Source: an uncultured Calditrichaceae bacterium
GTDB lineage: Bacteria > Calditrichota > Calditrichia > RBG-13-44-9
Reading direction: 5' to 3'
Assembly: GCA_964495805.1 (NCBI GenBank)
Contig: CAZBWV010000088.1
Span: forward strand, 28,886-92,885
DNA length: 64,000 nt
The notes beneath the pieces were generated by a model. The model worked only from the letters and a program-made list of their open reading frames with translations. It did no database searches and was not told the origin of the DNA. Of this stretch, positions 12,949 through 19,872 are shown in pieces. Both the position numbers and the translations under genes were made by a program. Within the stretch, counting starts at the first letter, position 1. The number at the start of each line of letters is the position of its first letter.

Positions 12949-13359
12949 TTACCCCAATCCTGTCTCATCCTTCCGCAGGAATAACATGAAAGCGTCGTTC
13001 ACGTCTTCGAATTCCAGCGCGTGGCGCTTGCAGCCGTTGCGGGAACAGATTTTAATCGTTCCACCATATTCCAGTTGCAAGCCAATCATGGGTGCTTTGC
13101 ATTCACATATCTGTAGAACCGGAAAAGGTTCGTGGCAGTGGGGACAGGAAAAAGCAGCAATGGCACCAACCACGTCTTTCACACCTTCAAATTTTTTTTC
13201 GTAGCTCCCGTAAATCTGACTTAAATAAATTTTCCCCAGTTTACCGCCCATCTTTGCTTCCAGCTCAATAGCCGGTAAACCATCCAGCTTCACTTTATCG
13301 GTCAGTAACGATTTGCCACAATTCGAACACTTAACTGGTATGTTAATCTGGTGGCCCAT
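12949..13359 (-). CDS. Cys-rich zinc-ribbon protein, last gene of the NuoEF-fusion operon
   Basis: Four Cys pairs: CSNCG, CPHCH, CEC and CSRNGC. It starts 88 nt downstream of the fusion gene on the same strand. Confidence 0.5.
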   Translation of the reverse strand: MGHQINIPVKCSNCGKSLLTDKVKLDGLPAIELEAKMGGKLGKIYLSQIYGSYEKKFEGVKDVVGAIAAFSCPHCHEPFPVLQICECKAPMIGLQLEYGGTIKICSRNGCKRHALEFEDVNDAFMLFLRKDETGLG

Positions 13360-13447: not shown

Positions 13448-16400
13448 TTATACTTTTAGCACAAAATGCAAATCGTCGGTTCGGTATTTCACATTTCGAG
13501 AGGCCGAAAACGAATCGAACCACTTGAGCAGGAAGTTTCCGCCATAAGGCACCGTCTGAATACGGGCTTTTTTCAGAAGCTCCGGTTTCGGGATGTACCC
13601 ATTCCGGAACAGAGCAATTTCCTGGCGATATTCCGGAATCATCTGCTCAATTTCTGCGGTTACTTCCTCTCCGCGTTGCAATTTAAATATTCGCCCCAGA
13701 GATGCGCTCAAATCCACCAGAATTTGCCAGTTCTCCCGACCAATCCTGGAGGGAAGGGCGGCTCGAAATCGTTGTACCCGACCTTCTGCATTGGTGATGG
13801 TTCCGCTGTTTTCCGCAAACGGTGCCAGAGGGAATACAACATCCGCCTGTTTTGCCGTTTCGGTCATAAACATATCTGCAACAATCAGGAATTGGTGGTC
13901 TGATTTTTTCCATTTCATCTCAGCGGTTCCCAGCGGATCCTGTGCCCAGAAGATGGCTGCAGGAATTCGACCCAATCGCCACTCTTTCAGCAGTGCTGCT
14001 GTGGAACGCCCCGGGCGTCGGGGTAACTCTGCTTCCCACTCCTGATTAAACCGCTCGATAACCTGGGGATTGTCCACCCGCTGGTAGCCGGGTAAATATT
14101 CCGGTAACATCCCCATATCCAGCATCCCCTGGAAGTTTACCTCTTCGGGAACCGAAAGCAGAATTTCGCTTTTACCCAGCACATAAGCCAGGGTATTCAA
14201 CCAGTGCACGGTTTCCGCATCTCTGCGCGAACGATGACACACAAAGAGAGGACGTTCCGCTTTCAGCAGTTTTCGGAAGAATTTTTTCAACTCACCGGTA
14301 CTCAAGCCAAAATCGCTCGCTTTCTTTTTACGCGAGATTTCTCCAAGCTCGTTGCGCAGCATCTCCAGGGTGGAAGCGGGAATATGGCGGGCATATTTCT
14401 CCTGTTCGATTACAGAATCCACCAGAAATTTAAGGAATTCCACCCGATGTTCTTCAGAAACGGGTAAATTCTCGCCCCAGCGCGCCAGACGGGAATCCGG
14501 TTGATTCAGGATGTAGAGCGGTTGCCCGCGTCGGGCGGCTTTGTGCAGTTTAATGTAAAGCACGGGATGCGTTTCCATGGGGTCGAAATTGCCCACCAGC
14601 AGGAAGTCGCTGCTTTCAATCTTCTCGAATGTAGCATTGGACATGGAAGCGCGGAGCAACTCCTCGGGTAGTTCATTGAGATTGGCCAGTGAGCCCACAT
14701 TGTTGGTGCCCAGCACCACACGGGCAAACTTTTGTAACAGATAGTTCTCCTCATTGGTTACCGTCGGAGAACCAAAGACTGCCCATTCGGTATCTTCTTT
14801 TTGCAGATCCATAATACGTCGCGCAGTAAACAGGTACGCCTCGTCCCAGCTCACCGGTTGCAACTCACCATCTTTGCGGATATGGGGTTGAGTGAGCCGT
14901 TCATCGCTATTCACATAGCGGAACCCATACCGTCCCTTCACGCACAGATTGCCAAATTCGTTAACCACTGCTTCGCGGTCGGCAGAAGTTTTCATCCAGC
15001 GGTCGTCCAGAATTTCCGCCTGCAGGCTGCAGCCCACACTACAATACTGGCAGATGGTTTTCTCCTTTTCCAGAATCCACGGACCGGGTTTTACGGCATC
15101 CGGTTTGTCCACCAGAGCACCGGTGGGACAGGTTTCCACGCACTGTCCGCAGGAGATGCACTGGCTCTCTGCCAGCGGAACTTCCAGCGTCGGTTTGACC
15201 TTGGTGTCGAATCCACGCTTCACAAACCCGAACACACCCAATCCCATCACCTCGTCGCAGATGCGCACACAGCGGCCGCAAAGGATGCACTTATTCAATT
15301 CAATCTTAATGAAAGGATGACTGTCATCGGGTGGCAGGTCATGGAATTCTCCCTGAAATGCAGTCTGGTCCGCCTGATAATCGGTGGAATGTTTCTGTAA
15401 GTCGCACTCGTAGAATGCCTGGCATCCACACTCCAGGCAGCGCAGGGATTCCTGATACACCTGCTCTTCACTGAAGCCCAGTTCCACTTCTTCCCAGCTG
15501 TGCGCCCGCTCCCGGGCATCCCGGACGGGCATCTTCTGACGCGGAATTTTTGGAACATCAGCAAAATCTTCCGGTTGCGGCGGTCTCAGATTTTCCCGAC
15601 GACTGATGAACGGCTTCCTGGGATAGGCCAGTTCCTCTCCGGTAATGTATTTGTGAATGGCCTGGGCAGCTTTTCCTCCCTGAGCGATGGCTTCGATGGC
15701 AGTGGCTGGTCCCAGCACTACATCTCCCCCGGCAAACACACCGGGAATGTTGGTTTCCATGATTTCCGGTTTGACTTCCAGAGTACCCCAGCGGGTGGTT
15801 TTAATCTCCAGCAGCTTGCCATCCTTCCCGGCATACTCCAGGTCCGGCTTCTGCCCGATGGCGGCAATGACCCAATCCACCTCAATAACATAGTTGGAAC
15901 CCTCGATGGGAATGGGACGGCGACGTCCACTGGCATCGGGTGGTCCAAGCTCCATTTTCACACACTCAATGCCGGTTACCCGATTGTTTTCGTCGGTAAG
16001 AATTTTCACCGGTGCGGTCAGAAAGGTGAATTTGACTCCTTCTTCCCGGGCTTCTTCGATTTCAATTTTATTGGCAGGCATTTCTTTGATGGTGCGCCGG
16101 TAAACGATGTTGACCTCATCGGCTCCCAGGCGCAGCGCAGTCCGGGCGGCATCCATGGCTGTGTTTCCACCACCAATTACAGCTACTTTGCCAGAAAGCT
16201 TTTTCACCTTGCCCAGCTTTACCTCTTCCAGAAACTCGATTCCAGCCAGCACTCCTTCGGCATCTTCATTCTCCACACGCATACTGGTGCTGGCTTGCGC
16301 ACCCAATCCCAGAAAAATAGCTTCGTAACCGTCGTCAAATAGCGAATCGATGGTGAAATCCCGTCCCAGAGCTTTATTGCAATAGATTTCCACCCCCAGT

Positions 16401-17164
16401 TTTGTGATGCCTTCAATTTCTTTATCCAGGATTTTTTCCGGAAGGCGGTATTCGGGAATTCCCCAGCGCAGCATGCCACCGGGTTTGGGCTTGGCATCGA
16501 AAATGTGCACAGTGTGGCCTTCCTGACGCAGGTAATAGGCAGCAGAAAGTCCCGCCGGACCGGCGCCGATTATGGCAATCCGATGACCGGTATCCGGTTT
16601 TACCTCGGGGAAGTAACGGTCGGGACTCTCCAGATCGTAGTCCGCCAAAAAACGTTTAACGTGGTCGATGGCTTCCGCTTCATCCACCAGATTTCGCCGA
16701 CATGCCAGCTCGCAAGGTCGCGTACACACCCGACCGCATACCGTGGGGAGCGGATTGGTTTGTTTGATGAGCGCAATGGCTTCCTTGTATTTGCCCAGGG
16801 CGGCCAGCGCCAGATATCCCTGTACATCCACCCCGGCAGGACAGGTTAGTTTACACGGTCCCAGACAATCTGCATAATGGTTGCTCAGCATCAGCTCCAG
16901 CGCCATTTTGCGCGCTTCGCGAATCGCCTCGCTGTTGGTGGTAATCTTCATCCCGGGGTTTACTTTAGTGGCACAGGACGGTACAAACGTTCGGGCACCC
17001 TCCACCTGCACCACACATAGAAAACAGGAGGTAAACGGTTCCAGCTGATCATCGTGGCAAAGTGTGGGAATGTGAATTCCCTGTTCCCGACACACCTGCA
17101 AAATCGTCTGACCGCTTTCGGCAATCACCGTCTTCCCGTCTATAAATACCTGCACTTTGCTCAT
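13448..17164 (-). CDS. multidomain FeS flavoprotein: 2Fe-2S ferredoxin + GltD-like NAD(P)H oxidoreductase + NuoG-type FeS clusters + degenerate formate-dehydrogenase-like (MopB) domain
   Basis: N-terminal 2Fe-2S fold (CHDD...C..C). GltD motifs CLGPCKLTCP...NPLPTVCGRVCTRPCELAC, FAD/NAD folds IAIIGAGPAGLSAA and VAVIGGGNTAMDAA. Cluster motifs CLECGCQAFYEC, CILCGRCVRIC and CISCGQCVETCP. MopB N-terminal cluster CQYCSVGC...LCVKG. The catalytic Cys/Sec-His region is replaced by SLANLNELPEEL. Confidence 0.8.
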   Translation of the reverse strand: MSKVQVFIDGKTVIAESGQTILQVCREQGIHIPTLCHDDQLEPFTSCFLCVVQVEGARTFVPSCATKVNPGMKITTNSEAIREARKMALELMLSNHYADCLGPCKLTCPAGVDVQGYLALAALGKYKEAIALIKQTNPLPTVCGRVCTRPCELACRRNLVDEAEAIDHVKRFLADYDLESPDRYFPEVKPDTGHRIAIIGAGPAGLSAAYYLRQEGHTVHIFDAKPKPGGMLRWGIPEYRLPEKILDKEIEGITKLGVEIYCNKALGRDFTIDSLFDDGYEAIFLGLGAQASTSMRVENEDAEGVLAGIEFLEEVKLGKVKKLSGKVAVIGGGNTAMDAARTALRLGADEVNIVYRRTIKEMPANKIEIEEAREEGVKFTFLTAPVKILTDENNRVTGIECVKMELGPPDASGRRRPIPIEGSNYVIEVDWVIAAIGQKPDLEYAGKDGKLLEIKTTRWGTLEVKPEIMETNIPGVFAGGDVVLGPATAIEAIAQGGKAAQAIHKYITGEELAYPRKPFISRRENLRPPQPEDFADVPKIPRQKMPVRDARERAHSWEEVELGFSEEQVYQESLRCLECGCQAFYECDLQKHSTDYQADQTAFQGEFHDLPPDDSHPFIKIELNKCILCGRCVRICDEVMGLGVFGFVKRGFDTKVKPTLEVPLAESQCISCGQCVETCPTGALVDKPDAVKPGPWILEKEKTICQYCSVGCSLQAEILDDRWMKTSADREAVVNEFGNLCVKGRYGFRYVNSDERLTQPHIRKDGELQPVSWDEAYLFTARRIMDLQKEDTEWAVFGSPTVTNEENYLLQKFARVVLGTNNVGSLANLNELPEELLRASMSNATFEKIESSDFLLVGNFDPMETHPVLYIKLHKAARRGQPLYILNQPDSRLARWGENLPVSEEHRVEFLKFLVDSVIEQEKYARHIPASTLEMLRNELGEISRKKKASDFGLSTGELKKFFRKLLKAERPLFVCHRSRRDAETVHWLNTLAYVLGKSEILLSVPEEVNFQGMLDMGMLPEYLPGYQRVDNPQVIERFNQEWEAELPRRPGRSTAALLKEWRLGRIPAAIFWAQDPLGTAEMKWKKSDHQFLIVADMFMTETAKQADVVFPLAPFAENSGTITNAEGRVQRFRAALPSRIGRENWQILVDLSASLGRIFKLQRGEEVTAEIEQMIPEYRQEIALFRNGYIPKPELLKKARIQTVPYGGNFLLKWFDSFSASRNVKYRTDDLHFVLKV

Positions 17165-17436
17165 TTCTTGCTCCCATTCTTTAAAAAATTCCCGACATTC
17201 ATCCCCTCACCTCCGCTTTTCCGTCTATCTCTCAAAGCCATAACTTGCTCGCAATTCATTTCCATGTAAAAACCACATGTGCACAAAAATGAAACAGCTT
17301 CACCCCATCATCCCGTTCATTTTTTCCTGATCCACAATTTCCAATTCCCCAACACCTGGACTCCCCCACTTCTTTCAACCCTTTAAACCCCCATTCCCTT
17401 ACATCCCTTTCATTTTACATTTTACATTTCAACACC

Positions 17437-17520
17437 TCCCCTATCCCCCCATTTCCCCTATTCCCCTTATATCCCTTATATCCCCTATATCCCCTACATC
17501 CCCTATATCCCGTATTTCCC
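17437..17520. repeat. tandem 9-bp repeat, about 9 copies of ATCCCCTAT on the top strand (GGGGATATA-type G-tracts on the operon mRNA strand)
   Basis: Direct read: tcccctatc cccccattt cccctattc cccttatat cccttatat cccctatat cccctacat cccctatat cccgtattt. It lies in a 385-bp pyrimidine-rich non-coding spacer between the nuoF-like gene and the fusion gene. Confidence 0.7.
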
Positions 17521-17550
17521 TTCTACCCCTCACCTCCCTCCAACCCTTCC

Positions 17551-19371
17551 TCACGCCTCTTCCACTTCCTCCTTCACACCGGTTAAAATTTCGATGGCAT
17601 CGAACTTACACACATCGTAACAGGCGCCGCAGCGGGTACACATCTCTTCGTTGATGTAGTGCGGTTTCAGTTTTTCGCCGGTGATGGCGCCCACGGGACA
17701 GGCACGCAGGCACACCATGCAGCCAGTACAGGCGTCGGCAATAACCCGATAGGTAATCAGCGCCCGACAGCTTTTGGCGGGACATTCCTTGCGATAGATA
17801 TGGGCTTCGTACTCTTCCCGGAAGTATTTCAGCGTGGTTAGCACCGGATTGGGAGCCGTTTGCCCCAGACCGCACAGCGAACTTTTTTTGACGTTCTCCG
17901 CCAGTTTTTCCAGCTTATCCAGATCTTCCGGTTTGCCTTCGCCATTGGTGATGCGTTCCAGAATTTCCAGCATTCGTTTGGTACCCAGGCGGCAGAAGGT
18001 GCATTTACCGCACGATTCTTCCTGGGTAAAATTCAGGAAGAACTTCGCCACATCCACCATACAGGTGCGATCGTCCATGACCACCATACCACCGGAGCCC
18101 ATGATGGCGCCGGTTTTATTCAGCGATTCATAATCCACCGGTGTATCCAGCAGCTCTGCCGGGACGCACCCGCCGGAGGGACCACCCAACTGCACCGCTT
18201 TGAACTGTCGGTCGTCCTTGATGCCACCACCAATATCGAAAATGACTTCTTTCAGGGTCATTCCCATTGGTACTTCCACCATACCGCCGCGTTTAATTTT
18301 ACCGGCCAGAGCAAACACTTTGGTGCCCTTGCTTTTTTCCGTACCATAGCGGGCGAACTGGTCGGCGCCGTTCAGGATAATCCATGGCACATTGGCGTAG
18401 GTTTCCACATTGTTGATATTGGTGGGCTTCCCCCACAATCCTTTCACGGCAGGGAACGGCGGACGCAGGCGGGGCATACCACGCTTGCCTTCCACACTGG
18501 CAATCAGTGCTGTTTCCTCGCCGCACACAAACGCACCCGCTCCCAGCTTCAGCGAAATATCGAAAGAGAAATCGCTTCCCAGAATCTTCTTCCCCAGGAA
18601 TCCCTTTTCCCGCGCTTGCTGGATGGCAATTTCCAGCCGTTGCACCGCCAGAGGATACTCCGCGCGCACATAAATAATCCCTTCCTGCGCACCGATCGCA
18701 TATCCGGCAATCAGCATCCCTTCCAGCACGCTATGCGGGTCACCTTCCATGACGCTGCGATCCATAAAAGCGCCGGGGTCTCCTTCGTCTCCGTTGCAGA
18801 TGATATACTTGGTTTTTCCCGGTGACTGGCGGGCAAATTGCCATTTGATACCGGTGGGGAAACCGGCACCACCGCGTCCGCGCAAACCGGACTGCTTAAT
18901 CTCTTCAATGACCTCCTGCGGACTCATCCGGAACAGCACCTTGCGCAGCGCCTGGTAACCTTTTTGTGCCAGATAATCGTCGATATGCTCGGGATTGATT
19001 TTCCCGGCATTGCGCAGCACAATGCGAACCTGCCGCTCGAATAGCTCATTTTCCGCCTGCTCAATCCCCTCGCCTTTCACCACCCAATCTTCAATAATTT
19101 CCCTGTTCCGGAGGTGTTTTTCCAGAATCTGGGGCAGTTTCTTGGGAGTCACATCCCCGTAAATTACCGGGGGCATATCGGGCATCTGGATTTCGATGAG
19201 CGGTTCGCGGTAGCAGGCACCGATACAGCCGGTTTTTTCCAGTTCAACGGGTAAATTTTCCTGAGCAATCTTTTTCTCCAGCGCAGCGTACACATCGGCT
19301 GCTCCGGCAGCAATGCCACAACTGGCCATTCCCACCAATATCTTTATTTTTCCGTTTTTCGGGGAATTCAT
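17551..19371 (-). CDS. NuoF-like NADH-binding FMN/FeS flavoprotein (HydB/HndC/StnB-type) with a C-terminal 2x[4Fe-4S] ferredoxin domain
   Basis: GAGGAGFPTGIKW, CGKCTFCRLGT, and C-terminal motifs CTGCMVCLRACP and CTRCGACYDVC. Length is 606 aa. Confidence 0.85.
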   Translation of the reverse strand: MNSPKNGKIKILVGMASCGIAAGAADVYAALEKKIAQENLPVELEKTGCIGACYREPLIEIQMPDMPPVIYGDVTPKKLPQILEKHLRNREIIEDWVVKGEGIEQAENELFERQVRIVLRNAGKINPEHIDDYLAQKGYQALRKVLFRMSPQEVIEEIKQSGLRGRGGAGFPTGIKWQFARQSPGKTKYIICNGDEGDPGAFMDRSVMEGDPHSVLEGMLIAGYAIGAQEGIIYVRAEYPLAVQRLEIAIQQAREKGFLGKKILGSDFSFDISLKLGAGAFVCGEETALIASVEGKRGMPRLRPPFPAVKGLWGKPTNINNVETYANVPWIILNGADQFARYGTEKSKGTKVFALAGKIKRGGMVEVPMGMTLKEVIFDIGGGIKDDRQFKAVQLGGPSGGCVPAELLDTPVDYESLNKTGAIMGSGGMVVMDDRTCMVDVAKFFLNFTQEESCGKCTFCRLGTKRMLEILERITNGEGKPEDLDKLEKLAENVKKSSLCGLGQTAPNPVLTTLKYFREEYEAHIYRKECPAKSCRALITYRVIADACTGCMVCLRACPVGAITGEKLKPHYINEEMCTRCGACYDVCKFDAIEILTGVKEEVEEA

Positions 19372-19383
19372 CGGAATCGTCCT

Positions 19384-19872
19384 TTATTTTTGGTATTTCT
19401 TGAGAATTCGTTTGGTTTCCCGGTCGGTTAAACGGCCGTAAGTGGTGTCGTCTATCATCATCACCGGGGCCAGACTACAACACCCCAGGCAGGCCACCGA
19501 TTCCAGGGTAAACATGCCATCCGGTGTGGTATCCCCATCGGAGATGCCCAGAAATTCCTCGCACGCTTCGGTGATGCGTTCCGCACCGCTTACATGGCAG
19601 GCCGTTCCGTGACACACTTTGATGATATGCTTACCTACCGGTTTCAGACGAAATTGAGAATAAAATGTGGCAACCCCATAAATCTGACTCACATCGGTTC
19701 GGGTGGCCTCGGCTATGCGTACAATGGCTTCTTTAGGCAGATAACCATAAATTTTCTGCGTTTCCTGCAAAAGCTGAATAATCGTACCCGGTTTTTTGGC
19801 CAATTTTTTAAGAATACGATTCAGGGGTTTCAAATCGATGGATTCGGCGGTTTGTGCCAGACTTTCTGCCAT
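19384..19872 (-). CDS. NuoE-like thioredoxin-fold 2Fe-2S protein (HndA/StnA-type)
   Basis: CHGTACHVSG ... CLGCCSLAPV motifs of the 24-kDa subunit family. It starts 12 nt upstream of the nuoF-like gene. Confidence 0.85.
   Translation of the reverse strand: MAESLAQTAESIDLKPLNRILKKLAKKPGTIIQLLQETQKIYGYLPKEAIVRIAEATRTDVSQIYGVATFYSQFRLKPVGKHIIKVCHGTACHVSGAERITEACEEFLGISDGDTTPDGMFTLESVACLGCCSLAPVMMIDDTTYGRLTDRETKRILKKYQK

What the first reader, a model, noticed from the sequence alone, without database searches (positions are those of the whole stretch)
14650..14712. Molybdopterin (FdhA-like) domain of the fusion protein lacks the Cys/Sec-His catalytic segment
In catalytic formate dehydrogenases the segment after KFAR.V.GTNN reads roughly ...CxRVCHGPSVAG with the Mo-ligating Cys or Sec. 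Here it reads VLGTNNVGSLANLNELPEELL. Neither Cys, Sec, nor the following His-Gly-Pro is present. The domain is therefore a non-catalytic electron-transfer or structural module, as in NuoG and SfrA, and not a formate-oxidising site. That argues the complex is an NAD(P)H/ferredoxin oxidoreductase and not a formate dehydrogenase.
Basis: seen in the sequence. Interest (0 to 1): 0.5.

Follow-up and report, generated by a model that had tools for sequence, protein, structure and literature searches.

The report
Inactive formate-dehydrogenase-like domain of NfnA/StnC
The formate-dehydrogenase-like end of this 1238-residue fusion protein has lost its metal-binding cysteine, its catalytic residues and its cofactor cap, which is the normal, already published state of the large subunit of the NfnABC/StnABC electron-bifurcating NADPH/NADH/ferredoxin transhydrogenase, so the finding is correct but ordinary.

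Summary
The peptide VLGTNNVGSLANLNELPEELL is residues 817-837 of the ORF at 13448..17164 (-).

Aligned to E. coli FdhF (E 9e-56):
- Sec140 is Asn830 and His141 is Glu831, in a loop 5-6 residues shorter.
- Arg333 is Pro1006.
- The ORF has no in-frame TGA.
- The C-terminal cofactor cap domain (PF01568) is missing from the protein and from the whole window.

The fusion and the NuoF-like and NuoE-like genes upstream all match best the three solved NfnABC/StnABC complexes (9bov, 8oh5, 9n5u; E 1e-265, 1e-273, 1e-51). For those complexes, papers report no pterin density, no formate activity, and a dead-end Fe-S branch that serves assembly.

None of 117 family members has a Cys at the ligand column, and all lack the cap. 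Same-architecture fusions that keep Cys-His, Arg-Gly-Gln and the cap do exist, and they serve as an internal control.

Verdict: a new Calditrichia-type member of a known enzyme family, often mis-annotated as "formate dehydrogenase major subunit". Interest is low.

Side observations:
- A conserved 8-Cys small protein is a fourth gene of this clade's cluster.
- A Cys114/Cys143 ligand swap separates this clade from the solved bacterial enzymes.
- An odd purine-rich repeat spacer lies inside the operon.

The parts
13448..17164 (-). nfnA/stnC-like gene: 1238-aa fusion of an N-terminal [2Fe-2S] domain, a GltD/NfnL-like FAD-NADPH module, NuoG-type Fe-S clusters and a cofactor-less Fdh-like domain
   Evidence: ORF. 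Pfam architecture. Best PDB matches are 9bov_A (E 2.6e-265) and 8oh5_C (E 2.4e-254), both full length.
14654..14716 (-). Former metal-ligand loop, residues 817-837 (VLGTNNVGSLANLNELPEELL); this is the corrected range for the finding
   Evidence: Searches give the coordinates. Searches give the alignments to FdhF, FdsA and the intact fusions.
14672..14677 (-). Asn830-Glu831, at the positions of FdhF Sec140-His141 (FdsA Cys386-His387)
   Evidence: phmmer alignment, MAFFT alignment, codons checked.
14141..14149 (-). Pro1006-Glu-Glu, at the positions of FdhF Arg333-Gly-Gln (catalytic Arg; FdsA Arg587)
   Evidence: The role of the Arg in catalysis is taken from PMC7171172.
13451..15073 (-). Fdh-like domain (residues 698-1238): FdhF domains I-III only, with a 59-residue helical or disordered tail in place of cap domain IV
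   Evidence: Pfam finds Molybdop_Fe4S4 and Molybdopterin but no Molydop_binding. The AF2 model has pLDDT 92. Foldseek TMq is 0.76-0.81 to real FDHs.
14906..15064 (-). Retained [4Fe-4S] site of the Fdh-like domain (Cys705, Cys708, Cys712, Cys741) plus Lys743 (FdhF Lys44)
   Evidence: The four Cys are invariant in 117 of 117 family members; Lys is present in 90 of 117.
15635..16879 (-). NfnL/GltD-like NADPH module: HxxxCxxxCxxxCP (96-109), CGRVCx3Cx3C (143-155), Lys170, FAD motif GAGPAG (200-205), NADPH motif GGGNTA (331-336)
   Evidence: The motifs and the Lys ligand are described in PMC7483475, PMC10482914 and PMC12018979.
17551..19371 (-). nfnB/stnB-like gene (606 aa): NuoF-type FMN/NAD module with an N-terminal thioredoxin-like domain, a His/Cys hinge site and a C-terminal 2x[4Fe-4S] ferredoxin domain
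   Evidence: Pfam. PDB matches: 9bov_B E 2.3e-273, 9n5u_B E 7.7e-269, 8oh5_B E 2.2e-261, with aligned motifs.
19384..19872 (-). nfnC/stnA-like gene (162 aa): NuoE-type thioredoxin-like [2Fe-2S] subunit
   Evidence: Pfam. PDB matches: 9n5u_C, 8oh5_A and 9bov_C, E about 1e-50 to 1e-51.
12949..13359 (-). Conserved 136-aa all-beta protein with 8 invariant Cys and 1 invariant His. It is always adjacent to this clade's nfnCBA cluster and may be a fourth component (function unknown).
17165..17550 (.). 386-bp intercistronic spacer between nfnB and nfnA. It is almost free of C on the coding strand and carries degenerate 9-mer (TATAGGGGA) and 7-mer repeats.
   Evidence: Most relatives have a spacer of about 30-70 bp (L007: 245 bp).

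Best explanation

Mechanism, inferred from the solved homologues and not tested here:
- NADPH is oxidised at the FAD of the GltD/NfnL-like module of the large subunit.
- Electrons pass one at a time along a chain of Fe-S clusters to the FMN of the NuoF-like subunit.
- There, together with the neighbouring clusters of the NuoF-like and NuoE-like subunits, they are bifurcated to NAD+ and ferredoxin, or run in reverse to make NADPH.

The C-terminal formate-dehydrogenase-like domain is an evolutionary remnant.
- It keeps the fold of FDH domains I-III and its [4Fe-4S] cluster.
- It has lost the Sec/Cys ligand, the His and Arg catalytic residues, part of the guanine-dinucleotide contacts and the entire cap domain.
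- It therefore binds no Mo/W-bis-MGD and does not oxidise formate.
- In the homologues its clusters form a dead-end branch and the domain serves folding and oligomer assembly. The same is the most likely role here.
For: Shown here:
- Loss of Sec/Cys-His: Asn830-Glu831, in a loop 5-6 residues shorter.
- Arg333 is Pro1006 and Asp-Pro-Arg is Asn-Gln-Pro.
- No in-frame TGA.
- No PF01568 domain in the protein, and no cap-domain-like sequence anywhere in the 64-kb window by tblastn (best E 0.02, which is noise).
- An intact fusion, P0182, aligns over its residues 12-1191 and the alignment stops just before its cap domain.
- NCBIfam Fdh-alpha scores 255 bits against a cut-off of 666.
- All three subunits have the solved NfnABC/StnABC complexes as their best PDB matches, over full length.
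- The family's characteristic residues are present: Lys170, HxxxCxxxCxxxCP, CxxCxCx5C, the GxGxxA NADPH motif, and in NfnB the His/Cys hinge site and the two CxxCxxCxxxC(P/K) motifs.
- The gene order nfnC-nfnB-nfnA is conserved in about 30 related loci.
- 117 of 117 family members lack a Cys at the ligand column and lack the cap domain.
- No FDH accessory, molybdopterin-synthesis or selenocysteine genes were seen among the 13 ORFs flanking the cluster that were read or scanned.

From the literature:
- StnC shows no formate:methyl viologen activity (PMC7483475).
- The FdhF-like domain is catalytically inactive, and it and its clusters are needed for tetramer assembly (PMC10482914).
- The pterin site is incomplete, there is no pterin density, and A2-A4-A5 form a dead-end branch (PMC11829005).
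- NfnA lacks the beta-barrel domain that Nqo3 and FdsA carry (PMC12018979).
Against: - No biochemistry exists for this protein or its clade. The activity and its direction are inferred from orthologues that are roughly 45-55% identical in the N-terminal 700 residues and only about 22% identical in the Fdh-like domain.
- The Fdh-like domain of this clade is better preserved than in the solved enzymes. It resembles real FDHs slightly more (TMq 0.76-0.81, 26-28% identity) than it resembles 9bov_A or 8oh5_C (TMq 0.74 and 0.69, 22% identity).
- Several FDH motifs are still strongly conserved across the family: TNEE, QKFAR, GEDP and Asp1097. A residual ligand- or partner-binding role is therefore not excluded.
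- A conserved fourth gene, absent from the characterised systems, sits next to the cluster.
- Related enzymes were first described as NADPH:sulfur (Nso) or NADPH:Fe(III) (Sfr) reductases, so the physiological acceptor may differ.
Confidence: 0.88

Rival explanations
1. The domain is still a catalytic Mo/W formate dehydrogenase that uses a non-canonical metal ligand (for example Asn830 or Glu831, or the lone Cys976), making the complex an NADP-linked bifurcating FDH.
For: - The fold of FDH domains I-III is well preserved, and Pfam Molybdopterin matches at E 8e-35.
- Lys743 (FdhF Lys44) and the proximal [4Fe-4S] site are kept.
- Asp/Ser-ligated members of the wider DMSO-reductase superfamily exist (general knowledge).
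- Same-architecture fusions with an intact site exist in nature.
Against: - The ligand, His, Arg, Gly-Gln and the Asp-Pro-Arg contacts are all lost, and the whole cap domain that shields and binds both MGDs is absent.
- The ligand column is not conserved in the family (gap, N, L, G, P, A, V, K...).
- The intact fusions score 252-281 bits on Pfam Molybdopterin against 121 bits here.
- The characterised orthologues have no pterin and no formate activity.
Confidence: 0.02
2. The complex is built like NfnABC, but its physiological reaction is different. It could be an NADPH-dependent reductase of another acceptor (polysulfide or oxygen as proposed for Nso, Fe(III) as for SfrAB, or the adjacent 8-Cys protein), with or without bifurcation.
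For: - Homologous enzymes were first isolated as NsoABC (NADPH:sulfur) and SfrAB (NADPH:Fe(III)) (PMC7483475).
- This clade carries an extra conserved small Cys-rich gene.
- It also has a different ligand set at the FAD-proximal cluster: Cys143 instead of Cys114.
Against: - The NfnB and NfnC subunits are about 70% identical to proven bifurcating enzymes, and all cofactor sites are conserved, including the ferredoxin-binding C-terminal dicluster domain.
Confidence: 0.08
3. The gene is a decaying pseudogene, or the missing catalytic segment is an assembly or frameshift artefact.
For: One relative (L011) has the gene split by a frameshift into 910-aa and 353-aa ORFs.
Against: - The window ORF is intact over 1238 codons.
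- It is identical in an independent JGI assembly (L001).
- It is 60-84% identical to many full-length orthologues that share the same shortened loop and the same end point.
- The domain is under clear constraint: invariant residues and a confident model with pLDDT 92.
Confidence: 0.01

Closest known systems
StnABC of Sporomusa ovata (PDB 8oh5/8oh9) and NfnABC of Caldicellulosiruptor saccharolyticus (PDB 9bov/9bp5): bacterial Nfn-Bfu transhydrogenases
   Same: - A three-gene cluster, with all three subunits homologous over full length (E 1e-254 to 1e-273 for the two large subunits).
- The same domain order in the large subunit.
- The Lys170 cluster ligand and the Cys motifs created where the GltD module is inserted.
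- A cofactor-less Fdh-like C-terminal domain without the cap domain.
   Different: - The Fdh-like domain is only about 22% identical. Here it keeps the FDH motif QKFARVVLGTNN, which the solved enzymes have lost.
- The Cys that is the candidate (possible) fourth ligand sits at position 143 (canonical GltD CGRVC) instead of 114.
- An extra conserved 8-Cys gene is adjacent.
- The host phylum is Calditrichota rather than Firmicutes.
Archaeal Nfn-BfuABC of Thermococcus sibiricus (PDB 9n5u/9n5v) and NsoABC of T. litoralis
   Same: The same enzyme family. NfnB matches at E 7.7e-269, NfnC at E 5.5e-51, and NfnA at E 1e-200 over residues 4-830.
   Different: The archaeal NfnA (963 aa) has only a partial Fdh-like domain, lacks one cluster and is monomeric (PMC12018979). 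The window protein has the full domains I-III.
Catalytic Mo/W formate dehydrogenases (E. coli FdhF 1aa6/1fdo; R. capsulatus FdsA 6tg9; HDCR FdhF 7qv7)
   Same: - The fold of domains I-III (TMq 0.76-0.81).
- The proximal [4Fe-4S] Cys motif and Lys44.
- The motifs QKFAR.V.GTNN, N.QG, ADVV.P and E..GT.TN.E.R.Q.
   Different: - No Sec/Cys, His141, Arg333-Gly-Gln or Asp202-Pro-Arg, and no cap domain IV.
- Below the NCBIfam Fdh-alpha cut-off.
Same-architecture fusions that keep the FDH active site (P0162, P0182, P0228, P0241, P0200; 1365-1409 aa, uncharacterised)
   Same: - The domain order 2Fe-2S, GltD/NfnL, Fe-S, Fdh is identical.
- They are 39-46% identical in the N-terminal 690 residues and 30-32% identical in the Fdh domain.
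   Different: They retain CAR[LV]CH, Arg-Gly-Gln, Gln-Asp and a 170-179-residue tail containing PF01568. The window protein has lost all of these.
NuoG/Nqo3/NDUFS1 (complex I 75-kDa subunit) and Geobacter SfrA
   Same: - These are other FDH-derived domains that have lost the cofactor.
- The motif ADV.LP...TN.EGR.Q is retained. The mammalian 75-kDa subunit matches query residues 1104-1179 at E about 4e-15.
   Different: - NuoG keeps a C-terminal beta-barrel domain (PMC12018979), has no GltD insertion and sits in a nuo operon. NCBIfam NuoG scores 333 bits against a cut-off of 470.
- SfrAB is a two-subunit enzyme with GltD (SfrB) separate and no NuoE/F partners (PMC7483475, plus my own recollection of Coppi et al. 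2007).

Membership tests
Catalytic Mo/W-bis-MGD formate dehydrogenase (FdhF/FdsA/FdhA) | Cys or Sec metal ligand in the C-A-R-[VL]-[CU]-H loop after KFAR.V.GTNN | tested here: not met
   Asn830 sits at the Sec140/Cys386 position. No Cys occurs between residues 742 and 975, and there is no in-frame TGA.
Catalytic Mo/W-bis-MGD formate dehydrogenase (FdhF/FdsA/FdhA) | Catalytic His next to the ligand, and catalytic Arg (FdhF His141/Arg333; FdsA His387/Arg587) | tested here: not met
   These positions are Glu831 and Pro1006. The roles of the residues are taken from PMC7171172.
Catalytic Mo/W-bis-MGD formate dehydrogenase (FdhF/FdsA/FdhA) | C-terminal MGD-binding cap domain (domain IV, Pfam PF01568) | tested here: not met
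   There is no PF01568 hit. The tail after the FdhF-512 column is 59 residues, against 170-180 in the intact enzymes. No cap-like sequence occurs elsewhere in the window.
Catalytic Mo/W-bis-MGD formate dehydrogenase (FdhF/FdsA/FdhA) | Proximal [4Fe-4S] cluster motif and the Lys that bridges to the pterin | tested here: met
   Cys705, Cys708, Cys712, Cys741 and Lys743 are present.
Catalytic Mo/W-bis-MGD formate dehydrogenase (FdhF/FdsA/FdhA) | Score above the curated cut-off of NCBIfam TIGR01591 (Fdh-alpha) | tested here: not met
   255 bits against a cut-off of 666.
Catalytic Mo/W-bis-MGD formate dehydrogenase (FdhF/FdsA/FdhA) | Bound Mo/W-pterin and formate oxidation activity | not testable with these tools
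   This needs metal analysis and enzyme assays. The orthologue StnC is negative (PMC7483475).
Nfn-Bfu transhydrogenase (NfnABC / StnABC) | Cluster of NuoE-like, NuoF-like and GltD-in-NuoG fusion genes | tested here: met
   The genes lie at 19384-19872, 17551-19371 and 13448-17164, all on the - strand. The same order is found in related loci.
Nfn-Bfu transhydrogenase (NfnABC / StnABC) | Full-length homology of each subunit to the structurally and biochemically characterised enzymes | tested here: met
   A subunit: E 2.6e-265 and 2.4e-254. B subunit: E 2.3e-273, 7.7e-269 and 2.2e-261. C subunit: about 1e-50 to 1e-51.
Nfn-Bfu transhydrogenase (NfnABC / StnABC) | NfnL/GltD module with FAD and GxGxxA NADPH motifs, and the conserved Lys ligand of the FAD-proximal cluster | tested here: met
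   GAGPAG at 200-205, GGGNTA at 331-336, and Lys170, which is invariant in 116 of 116 homologues.
Nfn-Bfu transhydrogenase (NfnABC / StnABC) | Junction motifs HxxxCxxxCxxxCP and CxxCxCx5C created by insertion of GltD into the NuoG-like protein | tested here: met
   HYADCLGPCKLTCP at 96-109 and CLECGCQAFYEC at 576-587. The motifs are named in PMC7483475.
Nfn-Bfu transhydrogenase (NfnABC / StnABC) | Bifurcation-type B subunit: N-terminal thioredoxin-like domain, His/Cys hinge site, and a C-terminal 2x[4Fe-4S] ferredoxin-binding domain | tested here: met
   Pfam domains. The alignments show SCG...GCIG.C, AHI...CPAKSC, and two CxxCxxCxxxC(P/K) motifs conserved with 9bov_B, 9n5u_B and 8oh5_B.
Nfn-Bfu transhydrogenase (NfnABC / StnABC) | Fdh-like domain without a pterin site | tested here: met
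   See the FDH rows above.
Nfn-Bfu transhydrogenase (NfnABC / StnABC) | NADPH oxidation tightly coupled to the reduction of both NAD+ and ferredoxin | not testable with these tools
   This requires the purified enzyme.
NuoG of respiratory complex I | NCBIfam NuoG equivalog score, and a nuo operon context | tested here: not met
   TIGR01973 scores 333 bits against a cut-off of 470. No nuoA-D or nuoH-N genes were seen among the flanking ORFs that were read or scanned.
SfrAB (Geobacter soluble NADPH oxidoreductase) | Two separate subunits (FdhA/NuoG-like SfrA and GltD-like SfrB) without NuoE/F-like partners | tested here: not met
   Here the GltD module is fused into the large subunit, and NuoE/F-like genes are co-transcribed. 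No SfrA sequence was available, so direct sequence comparison with SfrA was not done.

The most novel reading that the evidence does not exclude
In this widespread, uncharacterised clade of Nfn-Bfu enzymes (Calditrichota, Acidobacteriota, Myxococcota/Deltaproteobacteria, Bacteroidota, Alphaproteobacteria), the cofactor-less Fdh-like domain may not be a mere fossil. It is unusually well conserved, and the cluster always carries a fourth gene for an all-beta protein with 8 invariant Cys and 1 invariant His and no known fold relative. That protein could dock on the uncapped Fdh-like domain, where the lost cap domain used to sit. The 'dead-end' Fe-S branch would then become a real entry or exit for electrons, making a four-component enzyme with an additional redox partner.
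Probability: 0.08. Interest if true: 0.55.

Novelty: new member of a known kind. Interest (0 to 1): 0.2.

Why it matters
The main value is for annotation. Proteins of this family are widely labelled "formate dehydrogenase major subunit" or "molybdopterin-dependent oxidoreductase" in public databases. Reading them that way would wrongly give Calditrichota, Acidobacteriota and other MAGs a capacity to oxidise formate or reduce CO2.

Three features separate real NADP-linked FDH fusions from transhydrogenases of identical architecture: the Cys/Sec-His loop, Arg-Gly-Gln, and the PF01568 cap domain. They make a simple, checkable rule. For the organism, the cluster indicates a ferredoxin-dependent link between the NADH and NADPH pools.

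The biology of the inactive domain itself is already published for StnC and NfnA, so a specialist would not be surprised by it.

Tried and rejected
The range was corrected.
- I looked for a Cys or Sec elsewhere in the loop or the domain. There is none in the window protein. A conserved Cys about 8 residues downstream exists only in the 44-47%-identity clade, not here.
- I looked for a split or separately encoded cap domain. The downstream ORF is unrelated to PF01568, and tblastn with six cap domains found only noise in the window.
- Rfam on the whole window found no hits at gathering thresholds, so no riboswitch or SECIS-type element was detected.
- I considered NuoG and SfrA as the best family assignment. 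Both were rejected on architecture, context and NCBIfam scores.
- I asked whether retained FDH motifs (ADVV.P...TN.EGR.Q, GEDP) imply a retained cofactor. This was rejected because cofactor-less complex I 75-kDa subunits match the same stretch.
- I had no authoritative list of FdhF MGD-contact residues in the paper library. The positions tabulated (Lys44, Thr112, Asp202-Arg204, Gly402-Pro405, Gln428-Asp429, Ser445) come from my recollection of the FdhF structure literature and should be treated as approximate.
- I checked whether the 8-Cys gene was hidden in the loci that lacked it. L025 upstream encodes Ndk and L011 downstream encodes Hpt.
- No proper phylogeny was made. Only pairwise identities were compared.
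Full report
**Observation.** The fusion protein is the 1238-codon ORF at window 13448..17164 on the minus strand. The quoted peptide VLGTNNVGSLANLNELPEELL is residues 817-837, encoded at 14654..14716. The ORF has no internal stop of any kind, so selenocysteine read-through is not an option. After the fourth ligand of the Fdh-type [4Fe-4S] site (Cys741), the protein contains a single cysteine, Cys976.

**Alignment to catalytic formate dehydrogenases.** A phmmer search of residues 668-1238 against all PDB chains puts E. coli FdhH first (E 8.9e-56; query 699-1179 aligned to FdhF 2-512). It is followed by HDCR FdhF, R. capsulatus FdsA and B. subtilis YjgC. The loop is anchored by QKFAR.V.GTNNV before it and (A/S)MSNA after it.

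| FdhF position | Window residue |
|---|---|
| Sec140 | Asn830 |
| His141 | Glu831 |
| Arg333-Gly-Gln | Pro1006-Glu-Glu |
| Asp202-Pro-Arg | Asn887-Gln-Pro |
| Gly402-Glu-Asp-Pro | Ala-Gln-Asp-Pro |
| Gln428-Asp | Ala1096-Asp |

- The loop is 5-6 residues shorter than in FdhF.
- The four Fe4S4 cysteines and Lys743 (FdhF Lys44) are retained.
- The roles of the Cys ligand, His and Arg in catalysis, and of the C-terminal cap domain in shielding the bis-MGD, are taken from the R. capsulatus FDH paper (PMC7171172).

**Missing cap domain.**
- Pfam finds Molybdop_Fe4S4 (701-753) and Molybdopterin (756-1154; 121 bits) but no Molydop_binding domain.
- After the column of FdhF residue 512 only 59 residues remain. 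In the AlphaFold model they are helical and then disordered.
- tblastn with six cap domains against the whole 64-kb window gives only noise.
- NCBIfam's Fdh-alpha equivalog scores 255 bits against a cut-off of 666, and NuoG scores 333 against 470.

**What the protein is.** Over its full length the best solved relatives are the large subunits of three complexes:
- C. saccharolyticus NfnABC (9bov_A, E 2.6e-265)
- S. ovata StnABC (8oh5_C, E 2.4e-254)
- the archaeal Nfn-Bfu NfnA (9n5u_A, E 1e-200)

The two genes upstream on the same strand match the partner subunits of exactly these complexes.
- The 606-aa NuoF-like protein matches 9bov_B, 9n5u_B and 8oh5_B at E 1e-261 to 1e-273. [quoted passage not shown]
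- The 162-aa NuoE-like protein matches 9n5u_C, 8oh5_A and 9bov_C at E about 1e-50 to 1e-51.

The large subunit carries the features the literature describes for StnC/NfnA (PMC7483475, PMC10482914, PMC12018979):
- HxxxCxxxCxxxCP (residues 96-109)
- CxxCxCx5C (residues 576-587)
- the FAD motif GAGPAG
- the NADPH motif GGGNTA
- the Lys170 ligand of the FAD-proximal cluster

The 13 flanking ORFs that were read or scanned are housekeeping or unassigned; I saw no FDH accessory, molybdopterin or selenocysteine genes among them.

**What is already published about this domain.**
- Kremp et al. tested StnABC for formate:methyl viologen activity, because StnC was annotated as a formate dehydrogenase, and found none (PMC7483475).
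- The StnABC structure paper calls the FdhF-like domain catalytically inactive. Deleting it, or its two clusters, abolishes correct tetramer assembly (PMC10482914).
- The C. saccharolyticus structure shows an incomplete pterin site, no pterin density, and a dead-end A2-A4-A5 cluster branch. The authors describe it as an evolutionary remnant or possibly an electron overflow pool (PMC11829005).
- The archaeal paper notes that Nqo3 and FdsA have an extra C-terminal beta-barrel domain that NfnA lacks (PMC12018979).

The only refinement is that the domain is structural and off the main electron path, not an electron-transfer module.

**Family census and internal control.** A search of 5.8 billion proteins returned at least 120 clusters of 1220-1270 residues with the same Pfam architecture, none of them with PF01568. 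Sources name them "formate dehydrogenase major subunit", "FAD-dependent oxidoreductase" or "molybdopterin-dependent oxidoreductase".
- In an alignment of 117 members, no sequence has Cys at the ligand column, and the next three FdhF columns are gaps in all. Every tail is 37-95 residues long. The Fe4S4 cysteines are invariant.
- An exhaustive HMMER search with the Fdh-like domain alone also found fusions of identical architecture, 1365-1409 residues long, that keep CAR[LV]CH, Arg-Gly-Gln, Gln-Asp and a 170-179-residue tail containing PF01568. These are P0162, P0182, P0228, P0241 and P0200. They score 252-281 bits on Pfam Molybdopterin.
- One protein, P0187, has lost the cap and the Cys-His but not yet the loop residues.

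These proteins act as a natural control. Within a single architecture, the three features the window protein lacks are exactly the ones that go together in the presumably catalytic forms.

By pairwise identity, the window's N-terminal 690 residues group with the degenerate fusions (48-58%) rather than the intact ones (39-46%). Its Fdh-like domain is about equally distant from both (28-34%). This fits a loss followed by relaxed, divergent evolution, but no tree was built.

**Structure.** An AlphaFold2 model of residues 691-1238 is confident (pLDDT 92, pTM 0.92). Foldseek against the PDB ranks real FDHs first: 7bkb_D, 9ktl_A, 1aa6, 7xqw_A and 6tg9_A, with TMq 0.76-0.81 and 23-27% identity. They come slightly ahead of 9bov_A (TMq 0.74) and 8oh5_C (0.69), both at 22% identity, and ahead of NuoG chains (0.63-0.71). 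This clade's remnant is therefore better preserved than those of the solved enzymes.

Several FDH motifs remain strongly conserved across the family (TNEE, QKFAR, GEDP, Asp1097, ADVV.P, E..GT.TN.E.R.Q). The cofactor-less mitochondrial 75-kDa subunit also matches the last of these stretches (query residues 1104-1179, E about 4e-15). Motif retention alone therefore does not argue for a cofactor.

**Mechanism (inferred by homology).**
1. NADPH reduces the FAD of the NfnL-like module.
2. Electrons move through the two [4Fe-4S] clusters of that module and the NuoG-type clusters to the FMN of NfnB.
3. At the B1-FMN-C1 'flavobicluster', one electron path leads to NAD+. The other leads, through the mobile NfnC domain and the C-terminal dicluster domain of NfnB, to ferredoxin.
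4. The reaction is reversible.

The Fdh-like domain, with its [4Fe-4S] site (Cys705/708/712/741), most likely acts as a scaffold.

**Source and distribution.** The protein is identical to one in a JGI metagenome contig. The nearest species-level genomes are Calditrichia/Calditrichaceae MAGs (84%, 69%, 67% identity...). Relatives at 44-47% identity occur in Deltaproteobacteria/Myxococcota, Bacteroidota, Terriglobia/Acidobacteria and Alphaproteobacteria MAGs. This is wider than the Firmicutes, Proteobacteria, Synergistetes and Euryarchaeota distribution stated in the papers. It is not surprising.

**Things noticed in passing.**

*A conserved fourth gene.* The 136-aa ORF immediately downstream (12949..13359, -) has eight invariant Cys and one invariant His, and no Pfam or NCBIfam family.
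- Its homologue sits directly after nfnA in the Calditrichia-type loci that have enough downstream flank, except L011, and directly before nfnC in the distant loci of other phyla.
- It is absent from the two loci whose NfnA has Ile at position 143 (L025, L026) and from L011, whose nfnA is frameshifted.

*A ligand swap.* All 116 homologues and the window have Cys143 (canonical GltD CGRVC) and Val/Ile114. StnC and Csac NfnA have Cys114 and Ile143. Lys170 is invariant.

*An unusual spacer.* The nfnB-nfnA spacer is 386 bp here. It is nearly free of C on the coding strand (GC skew down to -0.9 on the + strand) and carries 9-mer and 7-mer repeats, whose copy number differs in the second assembly. 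Most relatives have about 30-70 bp; L007 has 245 bp.

*An upstream sensor-like set.* In the distant clade, the cluster is preceded by genes of the HATPase and [FeFe]-hydrogenase-like sensor type.

**Verdict.** The thing itself is a new, uncharacterised member of the known Nfn-Bfu/Stn transhydrogenase family, and its inactive Fdh-like domain is a published property of that family. Interest is low. The practical value is in correcting annotation. The conserved fourth gene is the only lead here that goes beyond what is known.

Noticed in passing
[not shown]
   Followed up: partly
window 16823..16825 (Val114), 16736..16738 (Cys143) and 16655..16657 (Lys170), all (-): Ligand swap at the FAD-proximal [4Fe-4S] cluster. 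The window protein and all 116 full-length homologues have Cys143 and Val/Ile114. The solved bacterial StnC and Csac NfnA have Cys114 and Ile143. Lys170 is invariant in both groups. The two fetched loci with Ile143 (L025, L026) also lack the 8-Cys gene.
   Followed up: partly
window 17165..17550 (between the nfnB-like and nfnA-like genes): A 386-bp intercistronic spacer that is almost devoid of C on the coding strand (GC skew to -0.9 on the + strand). It has about 9 degenerate copies of TATAGGGGA and a TAAAATG repeat whose copy number differs in the independent assembly L001. The runs of GGGG could form G-quadruplexes in the mRNA. There is no ORF and no Rfam match. Most related loci have only about 30-70 bp here; L007 has 245 bp.
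   Followed up: partly
proteins P0162, P0182, P0228, P0241, P0200 (1365-1409 aa) and P0187 (1231 aa); not in the window: Fusions with the same architecture as the window protein exist that keep the CAR[LV]CH Cys-His loop, Arg-Gly-Gln and the PF01568 cap domain. In other words, a BfuA-type subunit carrying both an NADPH/FAD module and an apparently intact formate-dehydrogenase site. P0187 looks like an intermediate: the cap domain is lost, Cys is Ala and His is Tyr, but the loop is not shortened. I did not find these described in the papers I read.
   Followed up: partly
homologues P0042-P0120 (44-47% identity clade), alignment: In the Acidobacteriota/Deltaproteobacteria-type clade, a conserved Cys lies about 8 residues after the former ligand position (VNRDLxCPEVVSTA), and the Arg333 column is Arg or His in 71 of 117 sequences. 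The window's clade has neither. The significance is unknown.
   Followed up: no
L004 1-2692 and L005 1-2630: In the distant clade the cluster is preceded by genes for DRTGG, a HATPase_c-type protein and a 430-aa Fe_hyd_lg_C/FeS protein. This is the sensor-like gene set often found next to bifurcating [FeFe]-hydrogenase operons. It is absent from the window.
   Followed up: no
L011 3001..6772 (MAG chromosome CP070707.1): In this relative the nfnA orthologue is split by a frameshift into 910-aa and 353-aa ORFs, and no 8-Cys gene follows; a hypoxanthine phosphoribosyltransferase gene sits there instead.
   Followed up: partly
database annotations of the family: Sources name these cofactor-less proteins 'formate dehydrogenase major subunit' (JGI), 'formate dehydrogenase subunit alpha' or 'molybdopterin-dependent oxidoreductase' (NCBI). 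No NCBIfam equivalog exists for StnC/NfnA. Only the generic NF009410 'NAD(P)-binding protein' model passes its cut-off.
   Followed up: yes
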